Shown here piece by piece: positions 8,403 to 44,186 of a stretch of DNA of 64,000 nt; the first letter of the stretch is position 1; each line of letters starts with the position of its first letter. Under the pieces are notes generated by a model. The model worked only from the letters and a program-made list of their open reading frames with translations, made no database searches and was not told the DNA's origin. The stretch lies in the IMG/VR virus record IMGVR_UViG_3300031547_000001, one strand, 5' to 3'. The translations under genes and the position numbers were made by a program. Origin of the DNA: an uncultured virus (IMG/VR IMGVR_UViG_3300031547_000001). Lineage: Duplodnaviria > Heunggongvirae > Uroviricota > Caudoviricetes.

Positions 8403-8449
8403 GGGTTTCCATTCCGTGGACTCCAGGGTAGAGTTCTACTCGTAAGCGA
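8403..8449 (+). promoter_or_regulatory. phage early-type promoter copy
   Basis: GGG-TAGAGT-TCTACTCGTAAGCG, matching the repeated promoter motif on the minus strand at 28.8-44.5 kb. Confidence 0.75.
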
Positions 8450-8474: not shown

Positions 8475-9053
8475 ATGAACCTCATCCACTCGATCCGCGA
8501 GATCCGCTTCAACTGCTTCGTCGTCGTCGACACCGAGACCGGCCAGGACATCTCCTCCGAGCTCACCTACGACAAGGCGGTCGACCTGGTCTTCAAGTTC
8601 GAGAACGGCCTCCGCTGGAACGCTGGCCTCCCGCTCCTGACCGTCGAGGACCTCCCGGCCCTCCGCTCCGAGCTCGCCGGGGACGACGCAGAGAAGGCCC
8701 AGGAGGCGGTCGCCGCCCACATCTGGAACACCTGCGAGACCGGCTGCACCCCGGGCGGGCGCAAGTGCGGCGTCTACAACCAGCTGTGGGAGGCGGCCCA
8801 CCGCCTGGCGAACAACTGGACCCGCGCCCCCTTCGCCACCATCAACCGCTGGGGCACCCGCCGGGGCCACATGAGCATGGCGGTCGCTCTGGCCGACGTC
8901 TGGATGAACGGCGGCGAGGTCATCACCGCTCCGGCCGGTGCCGCTGAGGCCGAGGAGGCCCGCCGGGTCGAGGAGAAGAAGGCGGCCGACGAGCGCCTCG
9001 CCGCTCGCCGGGCCTCCGGCGTCCGCACCCGCCGCCCGGGTCGCCGGTACTGA
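8475..9053 (+). CDS. hypothetical protein
   Basis: RBS GGGAG, strongly GC3-biased codons, own promoter and terminator. Confidence 0.75.
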   Translation: MNLIHSIREIRFNCFVVVDTETGQDISSELTYDKAVDLVFKFENGLRWNAGLPLLTVEDLPALRSELAGDDAEKAQEAVAAHIWNTCETGCTPGGRKCGVYNQLWEAAHRLANNWTRAPFATINRWGTRRGHMSMAVALADVWMNGGEVITAPAGAAEAEEARRVEEKKAADERLAARRASGVRTRRPGRRY

Positions 9054-9102: not shown

Positions 9103-9239
9103 GCGTTCCGGAATCGGAGCTGTCCGCCGGTTCGCACCCGGCATGCGGCCTAGGCGGCGACGTAAGGGCCGAACTCCCTGGGGTCGGTGACCTTGTCCGA
9201 CCGGCCGGAGTTCGGCCCTTACGCGGCCATACGCGGGTT

Positions 9240-11054
9240 CTACCGGTTGATGAACGCGGCCTTGAGATGGGTCGACATCTGCGGCAGGCTCCGCTGCATC
9301 ACCTTCTGGAACCGGCCGTCACAGACCACCACGATGCCATAGTCCCTCGGAGTGCGGAGCAGACGGCCGATGCCCTGGACCAGCCGGGTGTGCATGCACT
9401 CCATGGAGTAGCCGATCTGCTGCTCCTTGGTCCGCCCGCCTATGGCCTTGTGCAGGAGGCTCGGCACCTCGTAGGGGAGCTTCCAGATGGCGACGAGGGA
9501 CAGGGCCTCACCCTGGACGTCCACGCCCTTCCAGAAGCTCTCGACGCCGATGAGGATGGCGTTCCCGTTCTCCTTGAACTGCTTGATGAGGTACGGGTTC
9601 CCGGCCGTGTTGCCCGGCTCCTGGACCAGCACGAGGCGCCCCGGGAACGAGCGACGAGCCAGGGTGCCGAGCCGCTCAGCGTCGGCGTTCGAGGTCGCCA
9701 GGATCAGCGCACCACCGGGCGTCGACTTGAGCAGCCCCTCCAGGTCGGCCCAGCGCTCCTGCCACCAGCCCTTGGACTGCCAGTCGCTCGGGTCGTAGTG
9801 CGACGGGAAGATGTAGCCCTTGCAGTCGTTCCGCCAGTCGAACATCTGCGGGATGAACTGCGGGGTCACGCCGCTGAAGCCGGTCCGCCGGGGGAGCGAT
9901 CCAGGGACGGTGGCGGACACCATCTTGGGCGCCCATCCACGGCACGTACTGGCCACGGTAGGACCAGCGTTGACGACGTCCCAGTGAATGCCGTCCTTGT
10001 CGATCCAGGTGAGCGCGTAGTTCTTCTCGTGCTCGTCCGCCTCGGAGACCGAGAATGCGTCCATGCGCCGAGCCACGAACTGCACCGGCGTCTCGTGGTC
10101 GTCGTAGTCGCTGGGGTCCTCCTGCTCATCCTTCATCTGCTCGTTGAGCGACTTGAACAGTTGGTACAGGAGCTGTCGCTCGTCGTCCCGTAGCACGCGG
10201 TCCTGGAACTTCTTCGACGGGCTCGGGGCGTCCTCGGTCCGACCGGCCTCGGTCTCCTCGCGGATGTACTGCATCATGATGGCGTCAAGGCCATCCAGCA
10301 TCTGCTCCTTGAGGTCCTTGGGCAGGCCGTTGCCGGACTTCTTGTTGAGGGCCCAGCCGAGGGCGGACCGGACGGTTGCCGGCAGGAGCTGCGCCTCGTC
10401 CACGTACGACTGTCCGAACGGGATCAGGTGCACCGATCCGTCCGTCTGGTCGTACAGGTCCGAGTTGATCAGCCACAGCGAGGTGTTGGTCAGGACGACG
10501 TCCGCCTCGTGCGAGAGGAACCGGGCACGCTTGGCCCAGCAGATGCCCGCGTCGTGGTCGCAGTCGTCCCGCTGGCACAGGTCCGAGCCGACGCAGGAGA
10601 CGCAACGTCCGCCGCCGTTGCAGTAGTTGATCTCCTCGGTGGGCTTGGCGTACTCGGGGCCACGGAACTTGGGAGCGCTCAGTGCACGCTCCAGCATGGC
10701 CTGGTACTCCTCGTTGTCCTCGTTGTTGGCGGAGGCGCAGGCGTAGTGGCGACGCCCCTTGACGACTGCATAGGTGAAGTCGTTTCCGTCCTGCATGCGG
10801 GGCAGGTCCTTGCGGGCGTACTGGTCGAGCAGGGTGTTGTCGGCGGCGATGATGACCGAGACGTCGCCCGTGATCATGGCCGTGGCGACGGCGTGAGCGA
10901 TCACCGCGAACGACTTGCCGACGCCGGTGGGCGCCTGGACGTAACGGGGCTGCTTGCCCGACAGCATCTTCAGCAGATCGATCTGAGCCGGACGCGGCTT
11001 GATGCCTGCATTCTCCATGATCTCGATCGCGTCAGCGACCGTGGTCTCATTCAT
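9240..11054 (-). CDS. DinG-family SF2 helicase
   Basis: QAPTGVGKS Walker A, VKGRRHYAC, VDEAQ, SAT, FWKGVDVQG, KLPY, QGIGRLLR, Cys cluster; start taken at the ATG after an RBS. Confidence 0.85.
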   Translation of the reverse strand: MNETTVADAIEIMENAGIKPRPAQIDLLKMLSGKQPRYVQAPTGVGKSFAVIAHAVATAMITGDVSVIIAADNTLLDQYARKDLPRMQDGNDFTYAVVKGRRHYACASANNEDNEEYQAMLERALSAPKFRGPEYAKPTEEINYCNGGGRCVSCVGSDLCQRDDCDHDAGICWAKRARFLSHEADVVLTNTSLWLINSDLYDQTDGSVHLIPFGQSYVDEAQLLPATVRSALGWALNKKSGNGLPKDLKEQMLDGLDAIMMQYIREETEAGRTEDAPSPSKKFQDRVLRDDERQLLYQLFKSLNEQMKDEQEDPSDYDDHETPVQFVARRMDAFSVSEADEHEKNYALTWIDKDGIHWDVVNAGPTVASTCRGWAPKMVSATVPGSLPRRTGFSGVTPQFIPQMFDWRNDCKGYIFPSHYDPSDWQSKGWWQERWADLEGLLKSTPGGALILATSNADAERLGTLARRSFPGRLVLVQEPGNTAGNPYLIKQFKENGNAILIGVESFWKGVDVQGEALSLVAIWKLPYEVPSLLHKAIGGRTKEQQIGYSMECMHTRLVQGIGRLLRTPRDYGIVVVCDGRFQKVMQRSLPQMSTHLKAAFINR

Positions 11055-24841: not shown

Positions 24842-24924
24842 TCTCCGAGACGGGACTCGAACCCGCGACTTCCCTCCCTCTGCTGGATGCCAGGGAGATA
24901 GCTCTGCCGCTGAGCTACTCGGAG
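24842..24924 (-). ncRNA. tRNA-like RNA with non-canonical anticodon arm
   Basis: Acceptor stem CUCCGAG/CUCGGAG, U8A9, D arm GCUC-AGCGGCA-GAGC, T arm GCGGG-UUCGAGU-CCCGU; anticodon arm has a 7-bp stem and 12-nt loop; no encoded CCA. Confidence 0.75.
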
Positions 24925-28250: not shown

Positions 28251-28784
28251 CTACAGGTCGTCGTCCTCGTCGAAGTCGTCCTCGACGACCGGCGCGGCGG
28301 GAGCGGCCTTGGCGCGACGGCGACGGGTGGACGGCTTGGGAGCCTCCTCCTCGACCGGCGCGGCAGGGGCAGCGGCACCGCGACGACGACGCGAGGGCTT
28401 GGCGGGGGCGTCGTCCTCGTCGGCGGCGGGAGCAGCGGCCTTCGCAGCGGCGTCCGCCTCCTTCTTGGCCTTCGCGGCGGCGGCACGGGCGGCCTTGTCC
28501 TTCTCGGCCTGCTCGCGCTTCTCGGCACGCTCCTGGGCCTTCTGCGCCCGGGTCTCGACCGCCTTCTCCGCGTCCGCTCGGCGCTTCTCCAGGGCCGCCT
28601 GGTTCTCCGGCGACTTCTGGAACTCGATGCGCAGGGAGCAGGCGAGCTGGACCGTCTTCAGGTCGACCTCGTCCTCCTCCAGGCCGACGTGCTCGACGAG
28701 CCAGGCAGCGAACCGGCGGTGCAGCTCGGTGGGCTCCTTGTCGGCCAGATGTGCGAACTGCGGGCCGTCTTCGGTGTTCGTCAT
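28251..28784 (-). CDS. PTELH-family protein, paralogue 1 (Ala/Lys/Arg-rich tail)
   Basis: PTELH.RFA.W...DLKTVQLA...R..FQ.S..NQA motif shared with 35222-35722 and 39599-40225. Confidence 0.8.
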   Translation of the reverse strand: MTNTEDGPQFAHLADKEPTELHRRFAAWLVEHVGLEEDEVDLKTVQLACSLRIEFQKSPENQAALEKRRADAEKAVETRAQKAQERAEKREQAEKDKAARAAAAKAKKEADAAAKAAAPAADEDDAPAKPSRRRRGAAAPAAPVEEEAPKPSTRRRRAKAAPAAPVVEDDFDEDDDL

Positions 28785-28807
28785 GAGGTTAATCTCCATC
28801 GTCGATT

Positions 28808-28850
28808 CGCTTACGAGTAGAACTATACTCCGAAAAGTCGAAGCGAGTTC
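28808..28850 (-). promoter_or_regulatory. phage promoter copy
   Basis: TATAGT-TCTACTCGTAAGCG on the minus strand. Confidence 0.7.
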
Positions 28851-33747: not shown

Positions 33748-33804
33748 GGACTCCTCAGCATGGGTACCTTACCCACGGACACCGCTGGGTGCGGTGTTTC
33801 GTCC
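33748..33804 (-). ncRNA. hammerhead ribozyme type II (HH1)
   Basis: GGAC-GAAA-CACCGC/GCGGUG-UC^-CGUGGG/CCCAUG-CUGAGGA-GUCC; cleavage predicted between 33778 and 33777. Confidence 0.92.
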
Positions 33805-33817
33805 TGGTCGGGATGGA

Positions 33818-33952
33818 TCAGTCGAGCACTACATTCAGCAGGACCGTGAACAGGATCCCTGCTGCGAACCCGGTGCCCACGACGACGAGGAGCAGAAGCC
33901 CGAAGGCTCTTGCGCAACCCTCGCCGTCCGGCTGCTGGAACTTCTCGCTCAC
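33818..33952 (-). CDS. small membrane protein
   Basis: GTGA-coupled; hydrophobic C-terminal half. Confidence 0.5.
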   Translation of the reverse strand: MSEKFQQPDGEGCARAFGLLLLVVVGTGFAAGILFTVLLNVVLD

Positions 33953-34236
33953 TGGAGCGCGTCCCAGAGGGTGCGCGGCGCGTAGGAGCTGTACGGGCTG
34001 GAGCCGGACACGCCGTCCAGAGCGAGCCATACGGCGTTGCGTTCCAGGTCGGCCAGCGGACGCTCCTCGCAGTAGTCGGCGAGCTCCTCTCCGGAGATCG
34101 CGCCGACGACGACGTTCGTGAGCGGGTAGGACGGCTGCACGCCGCAGAGCACCTGGACCTCGGCGGGGTCGATCCCGCTCTCTTCCAGGTCAAGGGCGAT
34201 GGCCGCGAGCTTGTCGAGCAGCTCACCAAGCTTCAT
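33949..34236 (-). CDS. hypothetical protein
   Basis: RBS GGAGG. Confidence 0.65.
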   Translation of the reverse strand: MKLGELLDKLAAIALDLEESGIDPAEVQVLCGVQPSYPLTNVVVGAISGEELADYCEERPLADLERNAVWLALDGVSGSSPYSSYAPRTLWDALQ

Positions 34237-34636
34237 GCTTCCTCCACGATCTCGTCAGCACCCGTGCCTTACGGGCGGACCGCCGTGACTGGCTGCCACG
34301 GGGTTTCGATCTGGCTGTGGATCAGGTACCGGTCAGGCCCTTGATTGCGCTCAGCAGCAGGACACCGGCGATGATGCCGACCATGCAGCAGAGCAGGAAC
34401 TTGCCCATCACTTCCCTCCCACTGCTGCAGCGAAATTGTACAGGAGGATGAACAGAACGGCTCCGGCGAGGATCGCCTTGGGCCAGCTCATGGAAACTCC
34501 TACTGGTTGTTGGGGTCGGTGTCGTGCTGCTCGTGTACCAACGGCGGACCGGCGGGCTGCCCCTGGTTGCTGATGGGCAGGCTGATCATCGGCTGGACGC
34601 CCTGCTCGGGCAGGTCCCTGGGGCAGGCCTCGTCGC

Positions 34637-35092
34637 TCACAGCTCGGTCTCCACGAAGCCCGCACCGTCCAGGGCGGACTGTACCGGGTCATGCCCGAGG
34701 ATCCAGCGCTGCGGCGGGTCGAGCCGGAGGATCCGGCCGTCGATGCGGATCTTCTCGTTCGTGAGGCGCTCCACCTCGAAGCAGAGCCACTCGATGTTGA
34801 GCCACGCCGGGACCGTCGCGCTGCTGTGCGTGAATATCGAGGAGACGGCCGCGTGCACGAACGGGTCGGTGGCCACATCGGCCAGGGCCGGACCCAGGCC
34901 CAGCTCCTCGTTGCGCGGGTTGGACCGCTTGTTGTCGAGGTACCAGGACATGTCGTCGTCCGCCATCGACTTGAGCCGCTGCACCTCGTGTGCGCGCTCC
35001 GTGGCCTCGGGGCCGGTGAACAGCGCCACGAGTTCGGCGTCGTCGCACCCCTCGGTCGCCTTGTACAGGAGGACGACCTTCTCTTGATCCAT
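34637..35092 (-). CDS. hypothetical protein
   Basis: RBS AAGGAG just after HH2. Confidence 0.7.
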   Translation of the reverse strand: MDQEKVVLLYKATEGCDDAELVALFTGPEATERAHEVQRLKSMADDDMSWYLDNKRSNPRNEELGLGPALADVATDPFVHAAVSSIFTHSSATVPAWLNIEWLCFEVERLTNEKIRIDGRILRLDPPQRWILGHDPVQSALDGAGFVETEL

Positions 35093-35104
35093 TTGTACTC
35101 CTTG

Positions 35105-35157
35105 AGAGCTCCTCAGCACCGGCTCTTACCGGCGGACACCCGAAGGTGTTTCGCTCT
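35105..35157 (-). ncRNA. hammerhead ribozyme type II (HH2)
   Basis: AGAGC-GAAA-CACC-UUCG-GGUG-UC^-CGCCGG/CCGGUG-CUGAGGA-GCUCU; cleavage 35135/35134. Confidence 0.93.
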
Positions 35158-35221
35158 TGTGGACAGCGCCCCGGGAGGTTGGGGTGGTCGTCCTCCCCCG
35201 GGGCGCTGCCGTCTGTGGGTG

Positions 35222-35722
35222 TTACTTGACCGGCTCGGCGCCAACCGTCCGGCGGGAGCGACGGGCTCGGGGCTTGGGCGCCTCCTCGACCTTCGGCTCC
35301 TCAGCGGCCTGCTCGGTGACCTCCGCCTTGACCTCGACCTCGGCGGCGACGGGCGCCTCTTCGGTCTTGGCCTCGTCCTCGGCGGGCTTGTCCTCCGCCT
35401 TGGGCTCCTCGGTGGCCGGAGCCGCCTCGGTGACGACCGCGCTGCTCAGCTTGGCCAGCTCCTTCTCCAGAGCCGCCTTGCGCTTGGCGACACGCTCGGC
35501 CTCCTTGGCAGCCGCCGCGTCCTTCTTCGCCTTGAGGGCGGCCTGGTTGTCGTCGCTCGCCTGGAAGTCCATGCGGAAGGCGACGGCCAGCTGGACCGTC
35601 TTGAGGTCCGCCTCGACCCCGGTCTGCTCCAGGATCCACTTGGCGAAGCGCTCGTGCAGCTCCGTGGGGGCGGAGGCAGCGCGCTCGGCGAAGGACTTCT
35701 TCTTGCTGTTGTTGTCGGTCAT
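35222..35722 (-). CDS. PTELH-family protein, paralogue 2
   Basis: Shared N-terminal motif; RBS AAGGAG after HH3. Confidence 0.8.
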   Translation of the reverse strand: MTDNNSKKKSFAERAASAPTELHERFAKWILEQTGVEADLKTVQLAVAFRMDFQASDDNQAALKAKKDAAAAKEAERVAKRKAALEKELAKLSSAVVTEAAPATEEPKAEDKPAEDEAKTEEAPVAAEVEVKAEVTEQAAEEPKVEEAPKPRARRSRRTVGAEPVK

Positions 35723-35735
35723 GACTTGCTCCTTG

Positions 35736-35806
35736 GGACTCCTCAGCACCGGCGCTCTACCGGCGGACCATCGGGGCGGCCTTGCGACCGCCCCTAGGTT
35801 TCGTCC
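35736..35806 (-). ncRNA. hammerhead ribozyme type II (HH3)
   Basis: GGAC-GAAA-CC..GGGGCGGUC-GCAA-GGCCGCCCC..GG-UC^-CGCCGG/CCGGUG-CUGAGGA-GUCC; cleavage 35766/35765. Confidence 0.92.
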
Positions 35807-35858
35807 TGTCTATGTTGTCGTGCTTCTCACGCACCCGCCGGGACCTACCGGCTGCTTG

Positions 35859-36062
35859 TGCGAGGCGCGTCAGGCAGTCGATTACCTGAGCTTCGGGTTT
35901 TGTGGAGGACCCGTTCCTGTCTCCAAGGCTGCATTTGCTGCTACCGACCTCTTGCCTGGCCGCCCTGCTCGGTGCTCGCGGTCTCCGGCTCGGAAGCTTC
36001 GTCTCAACCTCGTACTCGGCGCTGCGGCCGTTCCGGGGAGTCGCTTCCTGCCCTCTCGCTTA
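35859..36062 (-). ncRNA. structured leader RNA, copy B (homologous to 39099-39303)
   Basis: Collinear conserved blocks shared with copy A; 5' GCGAG can pair with 3' CUCGC; lies between a promoter and HH3. Confidence 0.6.
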
Positions 36063-36099
36063 CGAGTAGAACTATGCCCCATATCGGCGCCGGAGGCAA
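36057..36099 (-). promoter_or_regulatory. phage promoter copy
   Basis: TTGCCT-17 bp-CATAGT-TCTACTCGTAAGCG. Confidence 0.75.
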
Positions 36100-36105
36100 C
36101 CCCTC

Positions 36106-36196
36106 GTCTACCTGCGCATTCATCACGTTTGCCCTGGTAGGAGGCTCGCGAAGTTTCTCCATCTTTTTTGGAGAAGTTTCAAATGCGCAGGTAGAC
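36106..36196. repeat. 15-bp inverted repeat plus third half-site upstream of promoter
   Basis: GTCTACCTGCGCATT (36106-36120) / AATGCGCAGGTAGAC (36182-36196); TTTGCCCTGGTAGG lies between them. Confidence 0.75.
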
Positions 36197-36255
36197 CTGA
36201 GTGCGACGCGTCTACGGCGATTCACCGTGGGCCAGGGCGAATCGGGCGAAACACC

Positions 36256-36621
36256 CTAGAGAGGCAGGAGCTTCCACAGGTTGCCGTTGGGCGTGCGCAC
36301 CACATCCTGGCCGTCGTTGGTCTTGCCGACCATCTCGATCAGCAGGGTGTCGGCCTTCCTCGGCGCCTCGGGAACGGGCACGACCTCGACCGCCTTGGCC
36401 TTGCGGGCCCCGGGGATGTTGCCGACCTCCCACGTGTTGCCACGATTGACGACCTTGATGTAGTTACCCAGGGACGTCTTCTCCAGGGTCCGACGCATGG
36501 CGTAGCGGACCTGCTCGCCGGTCAGGCCGGTTGCGGCCACGATCTCGGTTGCCGTCACCACCTCGTTCGCGCGGGTCTTCAGGTAGGCAATGACGTCGTT
36601 GGAGATGTTCTGTGCGGGCAC
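36256..36621 (-). CDS. winged-helix DNA-binding protein (putative)
   Basis: VIAYLK...VTATEIVAATGLTGEQVRYAMRR; RBS AAGGAG after HH4. Confidence 0.6.
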   Translation of the reverse strand: MPAQNISNDVIAYLKTRANEVVTATEIVAATGLTGEQVRYAMRRTLEKTSLGNYIKVVNRGNTWEVGNIPGARKAKAVEVVPVPEAPRKADTLLIEMVGKTNDGQDVVRTPNGNLWKLLPL

Positions 36622-36639
36622 TGTTACTCCTTGTTGATT

Positions 36640-36708
36640 GAGCTCCTCAGCACGGGCCATTACCCGTGGACACCGTGGCGGCTGTCGGGCCACCCCGGTG
36701 TTTCGCTC
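36640..36708 (-). ncRNA. hammerhead ribozyme type II (HH4)
   Basis: GAGC-GAAA-CACCG...CGGUG-UC^-CACGGG/CCCGUG-CUGAGGA-GCUC; begins immediately after the upstream stop codon; cleavage 36669/36668. Confidence 0.92.
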
Positions 36709-36945
36709 TCATCGCTCGTTGGTGTCGATCTGCACCGTCACGGGAACGTTGAACCTGGACGGGTGCGAGCCGTCGTTGTCGTCTTCCATCCAGGCCACGT
36801 CTGCGAGTTGCAGGAAGTCAACGAACCGGGCGGCCATCAGCATGTTGGGGAACGTGAAGCTCCTGATGCCGAGAGTGTTGAACCCCAGCTCGCCGTTGAA
36901 CGCCGTCACGGAGTCCAGCATCCGCGAGATCTGACTCTCGTTCAC
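36709..36945 (-). CDS. hypothetical protein
   Basis: RBS GAGGAGGA; stop abuts HH4. Confidence 0.6.
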   Translation of the reverse strand: MNESQISRMLDSVTAFNGELGFNTLGIRSFTFPNMLMAARFVDFLQLADVAWMEDDNDGSHPSRFNVPVTVQIDTNER

Positions 36946-37267
36946 GTCTCTCGTCCTCCTCGCTGTTGCGCTCCCGGTACATCCGGAAGGCTCGGCGCAG
37001 CGTACCCGGCAGGACGCCGTAGGAGCGCGCTAGGGCGGCCTGCGAGCCGTTGCCGGTCCCGGCGGCCAGCCACTCCGCGTAGAGCTCCTCTACGGGCTTA
37101 GGGAGCTTCACGTATCGGTGCGCGGTGCCTGTGATCCGGCGTACCCGCTTGCGCACCTGGGACTCGTTGCAGCCATACACGGCGGCCGTGCGGGTGTTGT
37201 CGTTCCCGCACAGCGCGCGCATGGCCATGAGTTCCGCATCCGACTCGGGCAGGATGCGAGCCGTCAT
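36818..37267 (-). CDS. double helix-turn-helix protein (putative)
   Basis: TRTAAVYGCNESQVRKRV and QAALARSYGVLPGTLRRAF; 3' end overlaps the next gene. Confidence 0.55.
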   Translation of the reverse strand: MTARILPESDAELMAMRALCGNDNTRTAAVYGCNESQVRKRVRRITGTAHRYVKLPKPVEELYAEWLAAGTGNGSQAALARSYGVLPGTLRRAFRMYRERNSEEDERRERESDLADAGLRDGVQRRAGVQHSRHQELHVPQHADGRPVR

Positions 37268-37348
37268 GTCAGTGGTCCTTTCCGCCTGTCGTCCCGCTGC
37301 CGCCGTTGTCCTGTCCGTCGTTGGTCTTGCCGTGCTCGTCGCCGCCCA

Positions 37349-37507
37349 TCAGTACGCCTCTCCGTACAGGTCGGTGGCGTCCGCGTCCGGCGGCTGCACC
37401 TGCTCGGTGGGCGTGTGGCCTCGGGTCTCCGCCTGCACGATCGACAGAGCCTCGTTGGGTCCGGCGGGCTCGTGGGTCACGTTGTGGCCACGGGGTACGT
37501 CAGGCAT
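37349..37507 (-). CDS. small hypothetical protein
   Basis: RBS GAGGAG; MPDVPRGHNV... Confidence 0.5.
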   Translation of the reverse strand: MPDVPRGHNVTHEPAGPNEALSIVQAETRGHTPTEQVQPPDADATDLYGEAY

Positions 37508-37748
37508 TGGTCTCCTCGCTGATGTCGAACTGGATGACGACGGGCTTGTCGAACGCGACCTGGCTCACGCCGTTCTCGTCGCTCCGGATCCGGGCGACCT
37601 TACGGAGCCCCGACAGGAGGATGTAGTCGGACGCGCACAGCAGGTCCTCGAACTCGACGTCCATCATGTAGCCATCGTCGCCCAGGATCTTGCCACCGAA
37701 GTGGACGCAGTTGCGCTCCACCGTCGCCTTGATGCTGGCACCGCTCAT
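37500..37748 (-). CDS. hypothetical protein
   Basis: RBS AAGGAG after HH5. Confidence 0.65.
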   Translation of the reverse strand: MSGASIKATVERNCVHFGGKILGDDGYMMDVEFEDLLCASDYILLSGLRKVARIRSDENGVSQVAFDKPVVIQFDISEETNA

Positions 37749-37762
37749 AGCTCTCCTTCTCG

Positions 37763-37827
37763 GGACTCCTCAGCACAGCCTCTTAGCTGCGGACCATCGG
37801 GCCCTTGGAGGGCCCTAGGTTTCGTCC
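37763..37827 (-). ncRNA. hammerhead ribozyme type II (HH5)
   Basis: GGAC-GAAA-CC..GGGCCC/GGGCCC..GG-UC^-CGCAGC/GCUGUG-CUGAGGA-GUCC; cleavage 37792/37791. Confidence 0.92.
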
Positions 37828-37835
37828 TTACGGCC

Positions 37836-38468
37836 TTACGCGCCGAACTCAGCCCGGCGCATGACCGACTTGATGCCGTGGCTCTTGACGAGCTCCGTCG
37901 CCCGCTGGAAGCACGCCTCCTCGTCGAGCGGGTCGATGACCTCCAGGCGCTCCGTGTCGACCGTGGCCGGGTAGCGGAAGCCCTCCATGTTGTCGACCTT
38001 GAACACGCCCACCTTGCCGTAGCGGTTGAAGTCGGAGGGCTTGATCGCCTCGATGACGCCCTCGCACCCGACGTACCGGCCCTTGGTCGTCTTGGACTTG
38101 ACGCGCTTCCCGTAGGAGGGCGTGCTCCACTCGCGGATGTACTGCTCGGTCAGGTTGGCGATCATGATCGCCTCAGCCGCCGCGATGACCTCGGGGGTTG
38201 CGTCGATGGCGCAGTGGTTGTGGTAGGTCCAGCCACGAGTCGTCGCGTACTGGACGACCTTGACCTTGCCCTCTTCCTTGTCGAGGACGATCGCCATGAA
38301 GTCGCTGTCGTCGTACATGTTGCGCTCGAAGGTGTCGATGACGCAGTCGACATAGGTGACCTCGTGGGCCTGCTCGACGTGCGCCTGGAACAGGCCGTTC
38401 TGCTCGCTGTACGAGTTGGGGTTGTAGCCCTCCGGCAGGTTGGGGTTGATGCACGTGATGATGGGCAC
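37836..38468 (-). CDS. hypothetical protein
   Basis: GTG after AGGAGG; GC3-biased codons. Confidence 0.7.
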   Translation of the reverse strand: MPIITCINPNLPEGYNPNSYSEQNGLFQAHVEQAHEVTYVDCVIDTFERNMYDDSDFMAIVLDKEEGKVKVVQYATTRGWTYHNHCAIDATPEVIAAAEAIMIANLTEQYIREWSTPSYGKRVKSKTTKGRYVGCEGVIEAIKPSDFNRYGKVGVFKVDNMEGFRYPATVDTERLEVIDPLDEEACFQRATELVKSHGIKSVMRRAEFGA

Positions 38469-38481
38469 GGGATCCTCCTGG

Positions 38482-38548
38482 GGACTCTTCAGCAGCGCCT
38501 CTGTAGCGCCGGACCGTCGCCCCGGTTGCCCGGGGCTAGGTTTCGTCC
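38482..38548 (-). ncRNA. hammerhead ribozyme type II (HH6)
   Basis: GGAC-GAAA-CC..GCCCCGG-GCAA-CCGGGGC..GG-UC^-CGGCGC/GCGCUG-CUGAAGA-GUCC; cleavage 38512/38511. Confidence 0.92.
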
Positions 38549-38551
38549 TGG

Positions 38552-38794
38552 TTACTTCTCCATGCTCTGGCCGATGAGGCACCAGGCGCACTCTTCGGAG
38601 AGCTCGGGGAACTCCCGCTTGATCTGCACGAAGAGCTTCTGCGCCTCCGCGTCCTGCTCCGCCCATGCCGGCATGCAGCCGGGCAGCGGGATGGGCTGGC
38701 CCAGCGAGAGGGCCATCGCGTCGAAGTCGGCCGCCAGCATCAGCGTCGCGTCGTCGGCGGGCTTGTCGGTGATGACCTGGGCTACCGCGTACAT
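38552..38794 (-). CDS. hypothetical protein
   Basis: RBS AGGAGG after HH7; stop 3 nt before HH6. Confidence 0.65.
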   Translation of the reverse strand: MYAVAQVITDKPADDATLMLAADFDAMALSLGQPIPLPGCMPAWAEQDAEAQKLFVQIKREFPELSEECAWCLIGQSMEK

Positions 38795-38805
38795 GCTTCC
38801 TCCTG

Positions 38806-38879
38806 GAGCTCCTCAGCAGCGCCGTTCAGCGCCGGACGGCCGGAGCCCCGCTGGCTGCGGGGCCCGGACCGTTTCGCTC
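38806..38879 (-). ncRNA. hammerhead ribozyme type II (HH7)
   Basis: GAGC-GAAA-CGG..GCCCCGC/GCGGGGC..CCG-UC^-CGGCGC/GCGCUG-CUGAGGA-GCUC; cleavage 38835/38834. Confidence 0.92.
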
Positions 38880-39010
38880 TACTGCTTCGGCGGGTTCGCG
38901 ACCTCGACTACAGCCGCGTCCTCGCCCCACCCGGCCTGTGCGGCGGGCAGATCAGCCGGAAGCTGGATGACCTCGGCGTCGTTCCCGAGGTGCTGCTCGT
39001 TCTCGGCCAT
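38879..39010 (-). CDS. 43-aa acidic peptide
   Basis: MAENEQHLGNDAEVIQLP...; RBS AAGGAG; exactly fills the gap between HH8 and HH7. Confidence 0.6.
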   Translation of the reverse strand: MAENEQHLGNDAEVIQLPADLPAAQAGWGEDAAVVEVANPPKQ

Positions 39011-39022
39011 GTTCTCTCCTTG

Positions 39023-39088
39023 AGACTCTTCAGGACCGCCGTTCAGCGGCCGACCCTCGGGGCTTGTGCAGCCCCTCGGGTTTCGTCT
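39023..39088 (-). ncRNA. hammerhead ribozyme type II (HH8)
   Basis: AGAC-GAAA-CCC..GGGGCU/AGCCCC..GGG-UC^-GGCCGC/GCGGUC-CUGAAGA-GUCU; cleavage 39052/39051. Confidence 0.92.
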
Positions 39089-39098
39089 TAGTTGGTTT

Positions 39099-39303
39099 CG
39101 CGAGGCGCCTTGCCCCGCGCTTCGGCGTTACCGCCTACCGGTTTTGTGGAGGTCCGGTGCCTGTCTAGAGTCAGCGGCCCTTGCGGGGCGCGATCGCAGC
39201 CGTCTCTCTTGGCTGTCCTACCGGGGCTCGCGGTCTTCGGGCGGATCCTCGACCGTCGGCTGGAGTCGCCGTCCCGGGAGTTCCTGTCCTGCCCTCTCGC
39301 TTA
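39099..39303 (-). ncRNA. structured leader RNA, copy A (homologous to 35859-36062)
   Basis: Collinear conserved blocks; lies between a promoter and HH8. Confidence 0.6.
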
Positions 39304-39341
39304 CAGGTAGAACTTTACTCCATGTCGACAGAAACGCAAAA
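39298..39341 (-). promoter_or_regulatory. phage promoter copy
   Basis: TTGCGT...TAAAGT-TCTACCTGTAAGCG. Confidence 0.7.
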
Positions 39342-39346
39342 CAGCT

Positions 39347-39433
39347 CCTACCTGGTCAAACGCGCGTTTGCCCTGGTAGGGGGCTTGCAAAGTTTCTTGA
39401 AGTTTTTTCCGGAAGTGCGAATGCCCTGGTAGG
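39347..39433. repeat. upstream module with three GC(C/G)C(T/A)GGTAG-type half-sites
   Basis: CCTACCTGGTCAAA, TTTGCCCTGGTAGG and AATGCCCTGGTAGG; same layout as 36106-36196. Confidence 0.7.
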
Positions 39434-39598
39434 CGGCTTGCGGCCCTACGCGCTCGCGTAAGGGGCTAGGGAGCGCCCGATGGGCCAGGGGCCCGGACTG
39501 CCGGCATGCGGCCGTTACGCGGCCACGTAGCCCGGCGCACGACCCCGGAACGCAGGACAGCCCCGGCTGGTAGGCCGGGGCTGTCGGAGCGGGGCTGG

Positions 39599-40225
39599 TC
39601 AGTCGTTCAGGCGACCGGCGCAGGGCAGGGTGTTGTAGGCCATGTAGTTCTCCTTGACCGAGTCCTCGCCGAACTCCTCCGGGGAGTAGATGTGGGCGGT
39701 GATCTCGGTGTGGGAGTGAGCCATCAGGGTCTCCTTGGAGTAGCCCTGCTTGCGGGTCTTCTTCTTGAGGTCGGCGCACCCGAAGGCGTGGACCTCGGGC
39801 TCGCCCATCCCGCCGTAGACGAGGGTCAGCTTGACCGGGGTCGTGTCGATCTCCTGCTCGGCGACAGCGGCCTTGACCTCGGCCTCGTCGTCGCTGAGGG
39901 CCTGGTCGGCCTCGGAGTCGTACTCCTCGGTCGCCGCGACCTTGCCGGTCAGCTTGGCGAGCTCGGCCTCCAGCTTGGCCTTCTTGCGGGCCGCGCTGGC
40001 CTTCTTGGTGGCGGCTGCAGCGGCCTTCTTGGCGGCCAGGACGGCCTGGTTCTCGGGGGAGGCCTGGAAGTCCATCCGGAAGATCACGGCGAGCTGGACG
40101 GTCTTGAGGTCGGGCTTGATGCCGGTCTCGGCCTCGATCCACTCGGCGAAGTGGCGGTGGAGCTCGGTCGGCTCGACAGCTGCGCGCTCGGCGATGGTCT
40201 TCGCGGTGGCGGTGGTCTTGTTCAT
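39599..40225 (-). CDS. PTELH-family protein, paralogue 3
   Basis: Shared N-terminal motif; extra C-terminal H...C..L domain; RBS GAGGAG. Confidence 0.8.
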   Translation of the reverse strand: MNKTTATAKTIAERAAVEPTELHRHFAEWIEAETGIKPDLKTVQLAVIFRMDFQASPENQAVLAAKKAAAAATKKASAARKKAKLEAELAKLTGKVAATEEYDSEADQALSDDEAEVKAAVAEQEIDTTPVKLTLVYGGMGEPEVHAFGCADLKKKTRKQGYSKETLMAHSHTEITAHIYSPEEFGEDSVKENYMAYNTLPCAGRLND

Positions 40226-40324
40226 CGTGATCTCCTCGGTGGTGTTCCCTCTTGCTTACAGAGAGAACTCTACGCCAGTCCAGTCCAGTTGGCTACCTCC
40301 AACCGCGACTTTCTTGAAGATTCT

Positions 40325-40597: not shown

Positions 40598-40680
40598 TCC
40601 CTGGTGTTGGTCTCGCTTACAAGAAGAACTCTACTCCATTCGGGGTGGAGGCGCTACCCTCCACCCCGACCTATTTCGGA

Positions 40681-41874: not shown

Positions 41875-41953
41875 TTGGACTCCTTGGTGTTGGGCTTACG
41901 AGTAGAACTCTACTCCACTGGAGGGCAGTTGGCTACCCTCCAGTGGAGATTGT

Positions 41954-44056: not shown

Positions 44057-44186
44057 TTGGGGCTCCTTCGTGTTGTGGTTACGAGTAGAACTCTACCCTG
44101 TGGACGTCGAGGTGGCTACCCCTCTCCACAAGATTGTTTCGGCGGAGGGGCGCCCCCACCCGCGAGGGGCAGGGGCGCCGGACCGA

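What the first reader, a model, noticed from the sequence alone, without database searches (positions are those of the whole stretch)
35859..39303. Two homologous ~200-nt structured non-coding leaders, each bounded by a promoter and a hammerhead
Seen: 39099-39303 and 35859-36062 share collinear blocks on the minus strand: GCGAGAGGGCAGGA; ACUCCC(C)GG(G/A)ACGGC; CCG(A/G)AGACCGCGAGC; CAAGAG; AGACAGG...CCUCCACAAAACC; GCGCCUCGC. The spacers vary with indels, the 5' GCGAG can pair with the 3' CUCGC, and there is no convincing RBS-led ORF. Each starts at a promoter and is followed by a ribozyme (HH8, HH3), which would release discrete RNAs of about 250 and 295 nt. Inference: an unrecognised ncRNA class, possibly a cis antiterminator for the long leftward operons (HK022 put-like) or a released decoy/sponge RNA.
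Basis: partly seen in the sequence, partly recalled or inferred. Interest (0 to 1): 0.78.

Follow-up and report, generated by a model that had tools for sequence, protein, structure and literature searches.

The report
New pseudoknotted leader RNA in Streptomyces phages
Two related, non-coding, tightly folded RNA leaders open the two ribozyme-punctuated early operons of a Streptomyces phage; they belong to an undescribed RNA family whose job, perhaps keeping the host polymerase going, is still untested.

Summary
On the minus strand, 39304-39089 and 36063-35807 are paralogous leaders. Each starts at a conserved promoter and start-site motif and ends at a canonical type II hammerhead, giving cut products of about 250 and 295 nt. 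All three sense frames carry stops. Rfam 15 finds nothing in them.

Every one of nine cultured relatives (cluster BN Streptomyces phages) has two copies, and metagenomic phage contigs add more: 32 distinct cores, plus seven remote relatives.

Comparative analysis gives a fold of a long irregular hairpin (domain 1) followed by two H-type pseudoknots. In the pseudoknot region 98% of cells pair, 7 of 20 pairs change on both sides and none on one side only. Slid controls pair at 18-49%.

Single-sequence folding energy is no better than shuffles (z about 0.1), so the case for structure is comparative.

The first shared block is partly promoter consensus. A hammerhead precedes every cistron of these operons, so it is not special to the leader. 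Every hammerhead detected lies downstream of a leader.

Function is untested. My best guess (0.33) is a put-like RNA that modifies the transcribing polymerase. Nearly as likely (0.28) is a released RNA that acts in trans.

The parts
39347..39380 (-). Operator-like inverted repeat upstream of the upstream leader's promoter
   Evidence: Pattern search finds it only here at 2 mismatches or fewer. A near-identical repeat with a 1-nt longer spacer lies before the other leader.
39312..39339 (-). Inferred promoter of the upstream leader (-35 TTGCGT, -10 TAAAGT)
   Evidence: Read. The -10 and start region belongs to a motif with 9 matches against 0.12 expected. It is not picked up by the strict sigma-70 scan.
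39089..39304 (-). Upstream leader RNA, from the start motif to the hammerhead
   Evidence: R1 153.6 bits, E 7.6e-45. R2, built without it, scores 22.2 bits, E 1.4e-4. Stops in all three sense frames.
39239..39294 (-). Upstream leader, domain 1: long irregular hairpin (P2, P2a, P2b)
   Evidence: Pair counts on A2 and A5. The distal P2 strands differ between lineages yet stay complementary (read).
39167..39215 (-). Upstream leader, pseudoknot 1: P3 CAGCC/GGCUG, P4 AGAG/CUCU, with variable hairpin P5 in loop 3
   Evidence: P3 complementary in 30 of 30 sequences (4 variants), P4 in 29 of 30 (4 variants). The P5 stems are replaced wholesale between lineages.
39138..39166 (-). Upstream leader, junction AGAC plus pseudoknot 2 (S1, S2, A-rich loop 3)
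   Evidence: This is the most conserved element of the family.
39100..39135 (-). Upstream leader, 3' hairpin P7 and the 3' strand of the possible closing helix P1 (pairs with 39296-39300)
   Evidence: Present in the minimum-energy fold. No comparative support.
39023..39088 (-). Type II hammerhead after the upstream leader; predicted cut after 39052
   Evidence: Core motifs and stems found by regex plus energy filter. Folds as a three-way junction, z -2.89. Not reported by the Rfam model at E of 10 or less.
36108..36141 (-). Operator-like inverted repeat upstream of the downstream leader's promoter
36071..36099 (-). Inferred promoter of the downstream leader (-35 TTGCCT, -10 CATAGT)
35807..36063 (-). 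Downstream leader RNA, from the start motif to the hammerhead
   Evidence: R1, built without it, scores 35.1 bits, E 2.2e-9. R2 95.5 bits. 85.6% identical over its whole length to the downstream leader of phage Yara. Stops in all three sense frames.
35987..36052 (-). Downstream leader, domain 1 with its own distal helix GGAAGC/GCUUCC
   Evidence: The minimum-energy fold reproduces the comparative model. Sequence read.
35924..35962 (-). Downstream leader, pseudoknot 1: P3 CGGCC/GGUCG, P4 CAAG/CUUG, short P5
35894..35923 (-). Downstream leader, junction plus pseudoknot 2 (S1 AGGA/UCCU, S2 CGGG/CCCG)
   Evidence: both S2 positions that differ from the other sequences are changed on both sides.
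35860..35889 (-). Downstream leader, hairpin P7 and the 3' strand of possible P1 (pairs with 36055-36059)
   Evidence: Read. Identical in Yara, so it cannot be tested.
35736..35806 (-). Type II hammerhead after the downstream leader; predicted cut after 35766
   Evidence: Fold z -3.01.

Best explanation
The two stretches are paralogous members of an undescribed family of structured 5' leader RNAs. Each has a long hairpin domain followed by two H-type pseudoknots. They form the first 200-250 nt of the two hammerhead-punctuated early leftward operons of a cluster-BN-like Streptomyces phage. I put that part at about 0.9.

Mechanism, inferred only: the leader folds as soon as it leaves the host RNA polymerase and binds it, probably through the near-invariant second pseudoknot. 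This makes the polymerase resistant to pausing and termination across the long, hairpin-rich, partly untranslated stretches that follow. That is how HK022 putL and putR work. The leader would stay with the polymerase after the first hammerhead cuts it off. The confidence given below is for this mechanism.
For: Structure
- Pseudoknot region, 17 sequences: 98.0% of cells paired; 7 of 20 pairs changed on both sides and none on one side only; 0 of 500 shuffles reach the observed value on four of five measures; slid controls pair at 18-49% with 0-1 such pairs.
- P3 is complementary in 30 of 30 sequences and P4 in 29 of 30, each across 4 strand variants.

Position
- In all 37 leaders examined, the RNA sits at the head of an operon, after a terminator and promoter, and never as a free-standing gene.

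Copy pattern
- Each BN phage has two homologous copies heading two successive early operons. HK022 likewise has putL and putR downstream of PL and PR (PMC9378689, introduction passage).

Compatibility with cleavage
- The same paper states that put antitermination does not depend on the transcript tether to the polymerase, and that putL starts at the transcript's 5' end and contains an RNA triplex (passages).

Link to the ribozymes
- All hammerheads detected lie downstream of a leader on the same strand: 9 of 9 in the window, 6 of 6 in the whole Dryad genome, and 9 of 9 Rfam-threshold hits in three remote phage genomes.

Target
- Pseudoknot 2 is almost invariant in sequence across phage groups whose other modules differ. 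That fits binding to a conserved host surface.

No fixed gene partner
- By eye, the first gene after the leader differs in each of the remote relatives.
Against: - No experiment or RNA data bear on the mechanism.
- No internal intrinsic terminators were found that would need overriding. In the window region the scan found 6 against 9.3 expected. In a remote relative it found 8 against 6.8, none on the operon's strand inside the operon.
- The RNA is 3 to 6 times larger than put and has a different fold.
- Six other promoters of the same phage drive operons without any such leader.
- Folding energy of each leader alone is no better than shuffles (z 0.11 and 0.06).
- Co-occurrence with hammerheads could simply mean that both are traits of one temporal class of genes.
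Confidence: 0.33

Rival explanations
1. Released trans-acting RNA. The hammerhead frees a compact, nuclease-resistant RNA of about 250 or 295 nt early in infection. This RNA titrates or inhibits a conserved host factor, such as a ribonuclease, the ribosome or a defence sensor.
For: - A processing site follows the leader in 32 of 37 cases by regex.
- In one remote relative a tRNA-like element, not a hammerhead, sits at that place (read).
- The pseudoknot-rich fold and the near-invariant pseudoknot 2 suit a stable binding RNA.
- C-rich unpaired stretches containing CUCC could contact purine-rich sites.
Against: - The RNA is never found as an independent gene with its own terminator.
- Three remote relatives have no detected ribozyme between the leader and the first gene.
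- In 10 of 11 BN 'type 1' leaders the following hammerhead has C in place of the core U in CUGA, which may slow cutting.
- The hammerhead is generic to every cistron.
- No host homologue was found that it might mimic.
Confidence: 0.28
2. Sensor leader. Pseudoknot 2 is an aptamer for a small molecule or a phage or host protein. Through alternative pairings it sets hammerhead cleavage or expression of the first cistron.
For: - It is a small H-type pseudoknot with an A-rich third loop and very high sequence conservation.
- In the long leaders of relatives, a 3' copy of the domain-1 5' strand could compete for the same partner (read by eye).
Against: - No Rfam riboswitch model matches.
- There is no terminator or start-site-masking helix next to the pseudoknot; 60-300 nt of other structure lie between it and the ribozyme.
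- The downstream genes are unrelated in different phages.
Confidence: 0.12
3. Passive structural leader. It is a folded 5' block that protects the primary transcript from 5'-end-dependent decay or Rho loading, or that insulates hammerhead folding. It has no specific partner.
For: - It sits at the 5' end and consists of compact helices.
- The leaders vary widely in length and module content (170 to about 450 nt).
Against: - Near-invariance of about 34 nt across distant phages, including positions inside helices, is more than a generic block needs.
- Six operons of the same phage do without it.
- After cleavage it no longer protects the mRNA.
Confidence: 0.12
4. Processed antisense regulator, like the leader-derived C4 RNA of P1 or CI RNA of P4 (recalled from memory). 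The released leader pairs with target sites in its own or other phage transcripts.
For: The leader is cut out of the operon transcript, and it has exposed C-rich loops.
Against: The longest complementary matches to either strand of the 64-kb window are 11-13 nt. That is the same as for shuffled leaders, whose maxima were 11-17 nt.
Confidence: 0.05
5. Not an RNA element. The conservation reflects a peptide or DNA-level signals.
For: - The first 4-6 nt are promoter consensus.
- Antisense frames are often open, in 15 and 16 of 18 sequences, as is common at this G+C content.
Against: - Stops occur in all sense frames in both window copies, and no frame is open in all 18 sequences.
- Indels of 1, 2 and 8 nt occur between homologues.
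- Changes on both sides keep the pairing.
Confidence: 0.03

Closest known systems
HK022 putL/putR antiterminator RNAs
   Same: - Two sequence-related RNA elements sit at or near the start of the two early operons of a phage.
- They need no dedicated protein.
- putL begins at the transcript's 5' end.
- The put fold contains an RNA triplex.
- Put activity does not need the transcript tether, so a downstream cut is tolerated.
(All from PMC9378689, passages read.)
   Different: - Put is about 70 nt with two stem-loops; this RNA is 170-450 nt with a hairpin domain and two pseudoknots.
- There is no sequence likeness.
- The host is an actinobacterium.
- Polymerase binding and read-through are untested here.
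Hammerhead-punctuated prophage and phage operons (Perreault et al. 2011, PMC3088659)
   Same: Several type II hammerheads flank single genes or short gene blocks, which implies processing of long phage transcripts (passages read). The window has 9 such ribozymes.
   Different: In the passages I read, that paper describes no structured leader at the head of such operons. Here every detected hammerhead lies behind one.
Small H-type pseudoknot riboswitch aptamers such as preQ1-I, SAM-II and guanidine-III (recalled from memory)
   Same: Pseudoknot 2 has the same topology: two short stems, a short first loop and an A-rich third loop, in about 35 nt with high sequence conservation.
   Different: - No Rfam model of any riboswitch matches at E of 10 or less.
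- There is no adjacent expression platform.
- It is embedded in a much larger RNA.
Leader-derived regulatory RNAs of P1 (C4) and P4 (CI) (recalled from memory)
   Same: An RNA is cut out of the 5' leader of a phage operon transcript.
   Different: Those RNAs act by pairing with repeated target sites. No complementarity above chance was found here, and processing here is by ribozyme.

Membership tests
Any Rfam 15 family | Covariance-model match at the gathering score, or at least a low E-value | tested here: not met
   - Whole window at gathering score: only a tRNA.
- 35400-39700 at E of 10 or less: nothing inside either leader.
- Five loci holding long leaders of relatives: only hammerheads.
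HK022 put-type RNA antiterminator | Two homologous copies just downstream of the two early promoters | tested here: met
   There are two copies per genome in the window and in nine BN phages, each at a promoter. Five remote relatives have a single copy each.
HK022 put-type RNA antiterminator | About 70 nt, two stem-loops in a V shape | tested here: not met
   The fold is a hairpin domain plus two pseudoknots, with a core of 160-200 nt.
HK022 put-type RNA antiterminator | Binds the polymerase zinc-binding domain and suppresses terminators in cis | not testable with these tools
   This needs transcription assays. Terminator scans gave no internal terminators above chance.
Type II hammerhead (the flanking ribozymes) | Core CUGANGA ... 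GAAA ... cleavage triplet GUC, with stems I and III closed and stem II open | tested here: met
   Motif and stem checks. Both fold as three-way junctions, z -2.89 and -3.01.
Type II hammerhead (the flanking ribozymes) | Rfam RF02276 score at or above 37 bits | tested here: not met
   In the window only two other hammerheads are reported, at 25.4 and 22.7 bits. The two that follow the leaders are not listed. Relatives' hammerheads do pass: 46.5 bits and 42-57 bits.
Riboswitch aptamers of the H-type pseudoknot kind | Match to a known aptamer model, and an expression platform next to it | tested here: not met
   No model match. No adjacent terminator or start-site-masking helix was seen.
Leader-derived antisense RNAs (P1 C4 / P4 CI type) | Complementarity to target sites in phage transcripts | tested here: not met
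   Longest matches are 11-13 nt, against 11-17 nt for shuffled leaders.

The most novel reading that the evidence does not exclude
The leader and the hammerheads form one system of a kind not known in bacteria or phages. After cleavage the leader carries a 2',3'-cyclic phosphate end. That end is rejoined to the 5'-hydroxyl ends of the downstream cistrons, either by the reverse hammerhead reaction on hybrid ribozymes or by a host RtcB-type ligase. Each processed message would then receive the same structured leader, as in a spliced-leader scheme. Several hammerheads share identical stem II strands (GGAC/GUCC in four, GAGC/GCUC in three), so hybrid ribozymes could assemble. The thin metatranscriptome data showed no such joints but could not have excluded them.
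Probability: 0.04. Interest if true: 0.95.

Novelty: new variant of a known kind. Interest (0 to 1): 0.66.

Why it matters
This would add a covariation-supported, double-pseudoknot RNA family to the short list of structured RNAs that phages place at the head of early operons. It is the first tied to ribozyme-punctuated operons.

About ten cultured, freely available Streptomyces phages carry it, so it can be tested directly.

If it rides the polymerase, it would be the first put-like element outside lambdoid phages, in a Gram-positive host. It might also explain how operons full of stable ribozyme hairpins are transcribed to the end.

If it is a released RNA, it would be a new candidate for host takeover or anti-defence.

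Either way, the near-invariant 34-nt pseudoknot points to a specific, conserved binding partner worth finding.

Tried and rejected
- **Rfam** at gathering and E-value thresholds: nothing in the leaders.
- **First degenerate pattern on viral contigs**: it fitted only one subtype; 12 of 51 hits proved real by model R2. A second pattern gave 0 hits.
- **Protein-anchored search** with the gene after the downstream leader: only two contigs identical to the window.
- **Model R1**, built from one subtype, truncated the other subtype. I therefore counted pairs on separate MAFFT alignments and a hand-parsed table.
- **Single-sequence folding energy**: z 0.11 and 0.06, no support.
- **Bacterial and archaeal genomes**: 26 pattern hits. 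Only one is real, a 1.5-kb phage fragment binned into a MAG. I took a Streptomyces hit and a Lachnospiraceae hit as chance.
- **RNA data**: three soil metatranscriptome runs hold scattered low-depth contigs across the phage. One is a 246-nt contig over 35803-36048. These are contigs only, DNA carry-over is possible, and there are no ends or joints. This gives no evidence either way on expression, cleavage or abundance.
- **Terminator scans**: at or below chance.
- **Antisense-target search**: at chance.
- **Pfam and PHROGs on 17 neighbouring proteins**: only families of unknown function and weak helix-turn-helix hits, so no functional hint.
- **ARAGORN** on the tRNA-like element of L028: negative.
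- **Earlier findings of this scan**: nothing on this RNA, only hammerhead operons.
- **Window's own assembly**: not held.

Full report
**What is there**

The window is most of a high-G+C siphovirus genome. Its relatives are nine Streptomyces phages: Dryad, Rooney, Gibson, Yara, Wentworth, Lizz, PHTowN, ShakeNBake and phiRKBJ001. The genome announcement for phiRKBJ001 places it in cluster BN (PMC8852317, abstract in the listing).

Both leaders lie on the minus strand. Each follows an A/T-rich stretch, an operator-like inverted repeat, a -35-like hexamer (TTGCGT or TTGCCT) and a -10-like hexamer (TAAAGT or CATAGT). The -10 and start region belongs to a motif, AGTTCTACnnGTAAGCGA, with 9 matches in the window against 0.12 expected.

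- Six of those sites run straight into a ribosome-binding site and a gene after 20-30 nt.
- Only the two sites with the inverted repeat carry a long leader. That repeat is found at this stringency only once by pattern, with a 1-nt longer version at the second site.

**The flanking ribozymes**

After 216 and 257 nt each leader meets a sequence with the complete hammerhead core and the type II layout. Each folds as the expected three-way junction, with z -2.89 and -3.01 against shuffles.

The Rfam hammerhead II model reports only two other hammerheads of the region, at 25.4 and 22.7 bits, below its 37-bit cut-off. Membership of the two flanking ribozymes therefore rests on motif and fold, not on the curated score.

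**Is the likeness real, and is it coding?**

- The two copies match each other weakly by BLAST (E 1.4e-4 and 5e-4). Both match two places in each of six fetched relatives at E 1e-20 to 1e-55.
- A profile search over all fetched loci gave 51 hits and 32 distinct cores.
- Model R1, built from 12 sequences that exclude the downstream copy, scores that copy at 35.1 bits (E 2.2e-9) when every position of the window is scored. The next hit is E 0.049. There are exactly two copies in the window.
- Both leaders carry stops in all three sense frames. No frame on either strand is open in all 18 sequences tested. Homologues differ by indels of 1, 2 and 8 nt. A conserved peptide is excluded.

**The fold**

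I derived the fold by reading aligned homologues and then counted pairs. It consists of:

- **Domain 1.** A long irregular hairpin made of a proximal helix GGGC/GCCC, a distal helix, an inner helix with a conserved two-base bulge, and a terminal hairpin.
- **A conserved linker.**
- **Pseudoknot 1.** P3 is a 5-bp hairpin. Four loop bases of P3 form P4 with four bases just before a conserved AGAC. Loop 3 holds a variable hairpin, P5.
- **Pseudoknot 2.** S1 has 3-4 bp, S2 has 3-5 bp, and the third loop is A-rich.

Pair counts on the three alignments:

| Alignment | Region | Sequences | Cells paired | Pairs changed on both sides | Shuffle control | Slid controls (cells paired) |
|---|---|---|---|---|---|---|
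| A4 | both pseudoknots, one subtype | 17 (13 distinct) | 98.0% | 7 of 20, none one-sided | 0 of 500 reach it on four of five measures; 89 of 500 on 'further pair types' | 18-49%, with 0-1 such pairs |
| A2 | whole core, other subtype plus upstream window copy | 12 | 98.3% of 39 pairs | 3 | 6 of 500 | 29-48% |
| A5 | domain 1, both subtypes | 15 (14 distinct) | 92.5% | 2 of 19 | 366 of 500 on that measure; 0 of 500 on covariation score | not quoted here |

On column-based counts, domain 1 is thus the weakest part. By eye, its distal helix uses different but complementary strands in different lineages (GGA/UCC, GGAAGC/GCUUCC, GGAAC/GUUCC, GAGC/GCUC, AGCG/CGCU). MAFFT puts these in shifted registers, so the column counts miss them.

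A hand-parsed table of 30 sequences shows:

- P3 in four strand variants, complementary in 30 of 30;
- P4 in four variants, complementary in 29 of 30 (the exception keeps 2-3 of 4 pairs, depending on register);
- P5 stems replaced wholesale.

In one phage (Lizz) the outer pair of S1 changes from A-U to U-A and S2 from CCG/CGG to CCA/UGG.

Against all this, each leader's folding energy alone equals that of shuffles (z 0.11 and 0.06). Pseudoknots are invisible to that test, but it gives no support.

It occurs only in this phage and in Yara, and no variation exists to test it.

**A wider family**

Model R2 covers the pseudoknot region. It finds remote relatives in viral contigs: L028, L039, L048, L034, L014, L026 and L043, at 32-103 bits.

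- In these, domain 1 and pseudoknot 1 are altered or replaced.
- About 34 nt of pseudoknot 2 and its junction are almost letter-for-letter the same.
- All sit after a terminator and promoter at the head of an operon, with leaders of 250-430 nt.
- The relatives' leaders, including those of the BN phages, are longer than the window's and carry further conserved modules. One is a hairpin with an invariant 16-nt loop that the window lacks. The window's two leaders are therefore minimal versions.

Distribution:

- Among 50,697 phage records only the BN phages match, even when queried with the remote forms.
- A scan of 185,579 bacterial and archaeal genomes gave 26 pattern hits. Only one, a 1.5-kb phage fragment, is real by R2.
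- The family is phage-borne and rare.

**Link to the hammerheads**

Hammerheads flanking genes in prophages are known (PMC3088659, passages), and earlier reports of this scan describe the same layout. What is new is their position relative to this leader:

| Genome | Hammerheads detected | Position |
|---|---|---|
| Window | 9 (union of two regex passes) | minus strand, 33,748-39,088, all behind the two leaders and before the next promoter |
| Dryad, whole genome | 6 | all within 2.3 kb downstream of one or other leader |
| Three remote phage genomes of 60-84 kb | 9, all above the Rfam cut-off | all downstream of the single leader on its strand |
| Two other remote genomes | none detected | leader present |

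- By regex, 32 of 37 leaders are followed by a hammerhead-like motif.
- In 10 of 11 BN 'type 1' leaders that hammerhead has C in place of the U in CUGA.
- The window's 'exclusively' rests on my regex, not on a curated model.

**What it does**

Nothing here measures function.

The base-pairing regulator model is weakened. Complementarity to the rest of the window is at chance.

A riboswitch is unlikely. There is no model match and no adjacent expression platform.

The remaining evidence fits an RNA that binds a conserved host macromolecule:

- position at +1 of selected operons;
- two copies on two successive operons;
- no fixed downstream gene;
- near-invariant pseudoknot 2;
- co-occurrence with ribozyme arrays.

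I rank a put-like action on the transcribing polymerase first (0.33). A published account states that put works without its transcript tether, starts at the 5' end of the transcript and contains a triplex (PMC9378689, passages). The downstream cut is therefore no objection. Hairpin-rich, partly untranslated ribozyme spacers are also a plausible reason to need it. Against this reading, I found no internal terminators above chance, and the RNA is much larger than put.

A released, stable trans-acting RNA is almost as likely (0.28).

**Novelty**

No Rfam family matches. Five full-text searches found nothing on such a leader. I did not see supplements of the hammerhead paper, which may list these ribozymes but, judging by the text, not the leader.

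I file it as a new variant of a known kind: structured RNA elements at the head of phage early operons. The sequence and fold are new.

Noticed in passing
window 33748-39088, minus strand: Nine type II hammerheads, one before nearly every cistron of the two leader-led operons. By regex there are none elsewhere in the 64-kb window. Stem II strands recur: GGAC/GUCC four times, GAGC/GCUC three times.
   Followed up: partly
window 8432-8449 (+); 28807-28824, 40252-40269, 40613-40630, 41892-41909 and 44075-44092 (all -): A family of promoters shares a near-identical -10 and start region (AGTTCTACnnGTAAGCGA). Four of them also have a GGTAGC-type upstream element in place of the TTGC-type -35 seen at the leader promoters.
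   Followed up: partly
window 39347-39380 and 36108-36141: Operator-like inverted repeats (arms CCTACCAGG / CCAGGTAGG) occur only at the two leader promoters and are conserved in relatives. They are probably the site of a phage regulator.
   Followed up: no
window 39599-40225, 35222-35722 and the ORF starting near 28770 (all -): Three paralogous genes (PHROG 20596, unknown function, N-terminal motif PTELH..F..W) are each the first gene behind a promoter. In relatives the same family follows one of the two leaders. The third paralogue was judged by eye only.
   Followed up: partly
L028 about 930-1010: In one remote relative the place of the first hammerhead is taken by a tRNA-like element with a T-arm-like GGUUCGACUCC and a 6-bp acceptor-like stem. 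ARAGORN does not call it a tRNA.
   Followed up: partly
L001 4430-4510 and the same place in nine other BN loci: The hammerhead after the 'type 1' leader has CCGA in place of CUGA in 10 of 11 sequences. This conserved core variant may cut slowly or not at all.
   Followed up: no
L001 about 8640-8660 and other long 'type 2' leaders: Near the 3' end of the long leaders, a copy of the domain-1 5' strand could pair even better with the domain-1 3' strand. This is a possible conformational switch, seen by eye only.
   Followed up: no
L014 about 960-1060 and L026 about 940-1000: Two remote relatives share a conserved motif of about 25 nt (GGUUCGCUCGUACCUCUAAACGA). In L014 it sits inside an extended hammerhead stem III.
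   Followed up: no
window 35868-36055, seen in run X13: A contig of a 90-95% similar phage aligns on both sides of the downstream leader but not across it. That relative seems to carry a different leader version.
   Followed up: no
window 9157-9288 (+): Weak match to leader model R1 (10.6 bits, E 0.049), about 700 nt downstream of the plus-strand promoter at 8432-8449. Probably chance.
   Followed up: no
window 24842-24924 (-): A tRNA gene (Rfam 42.5 bits).
   Followed up: no
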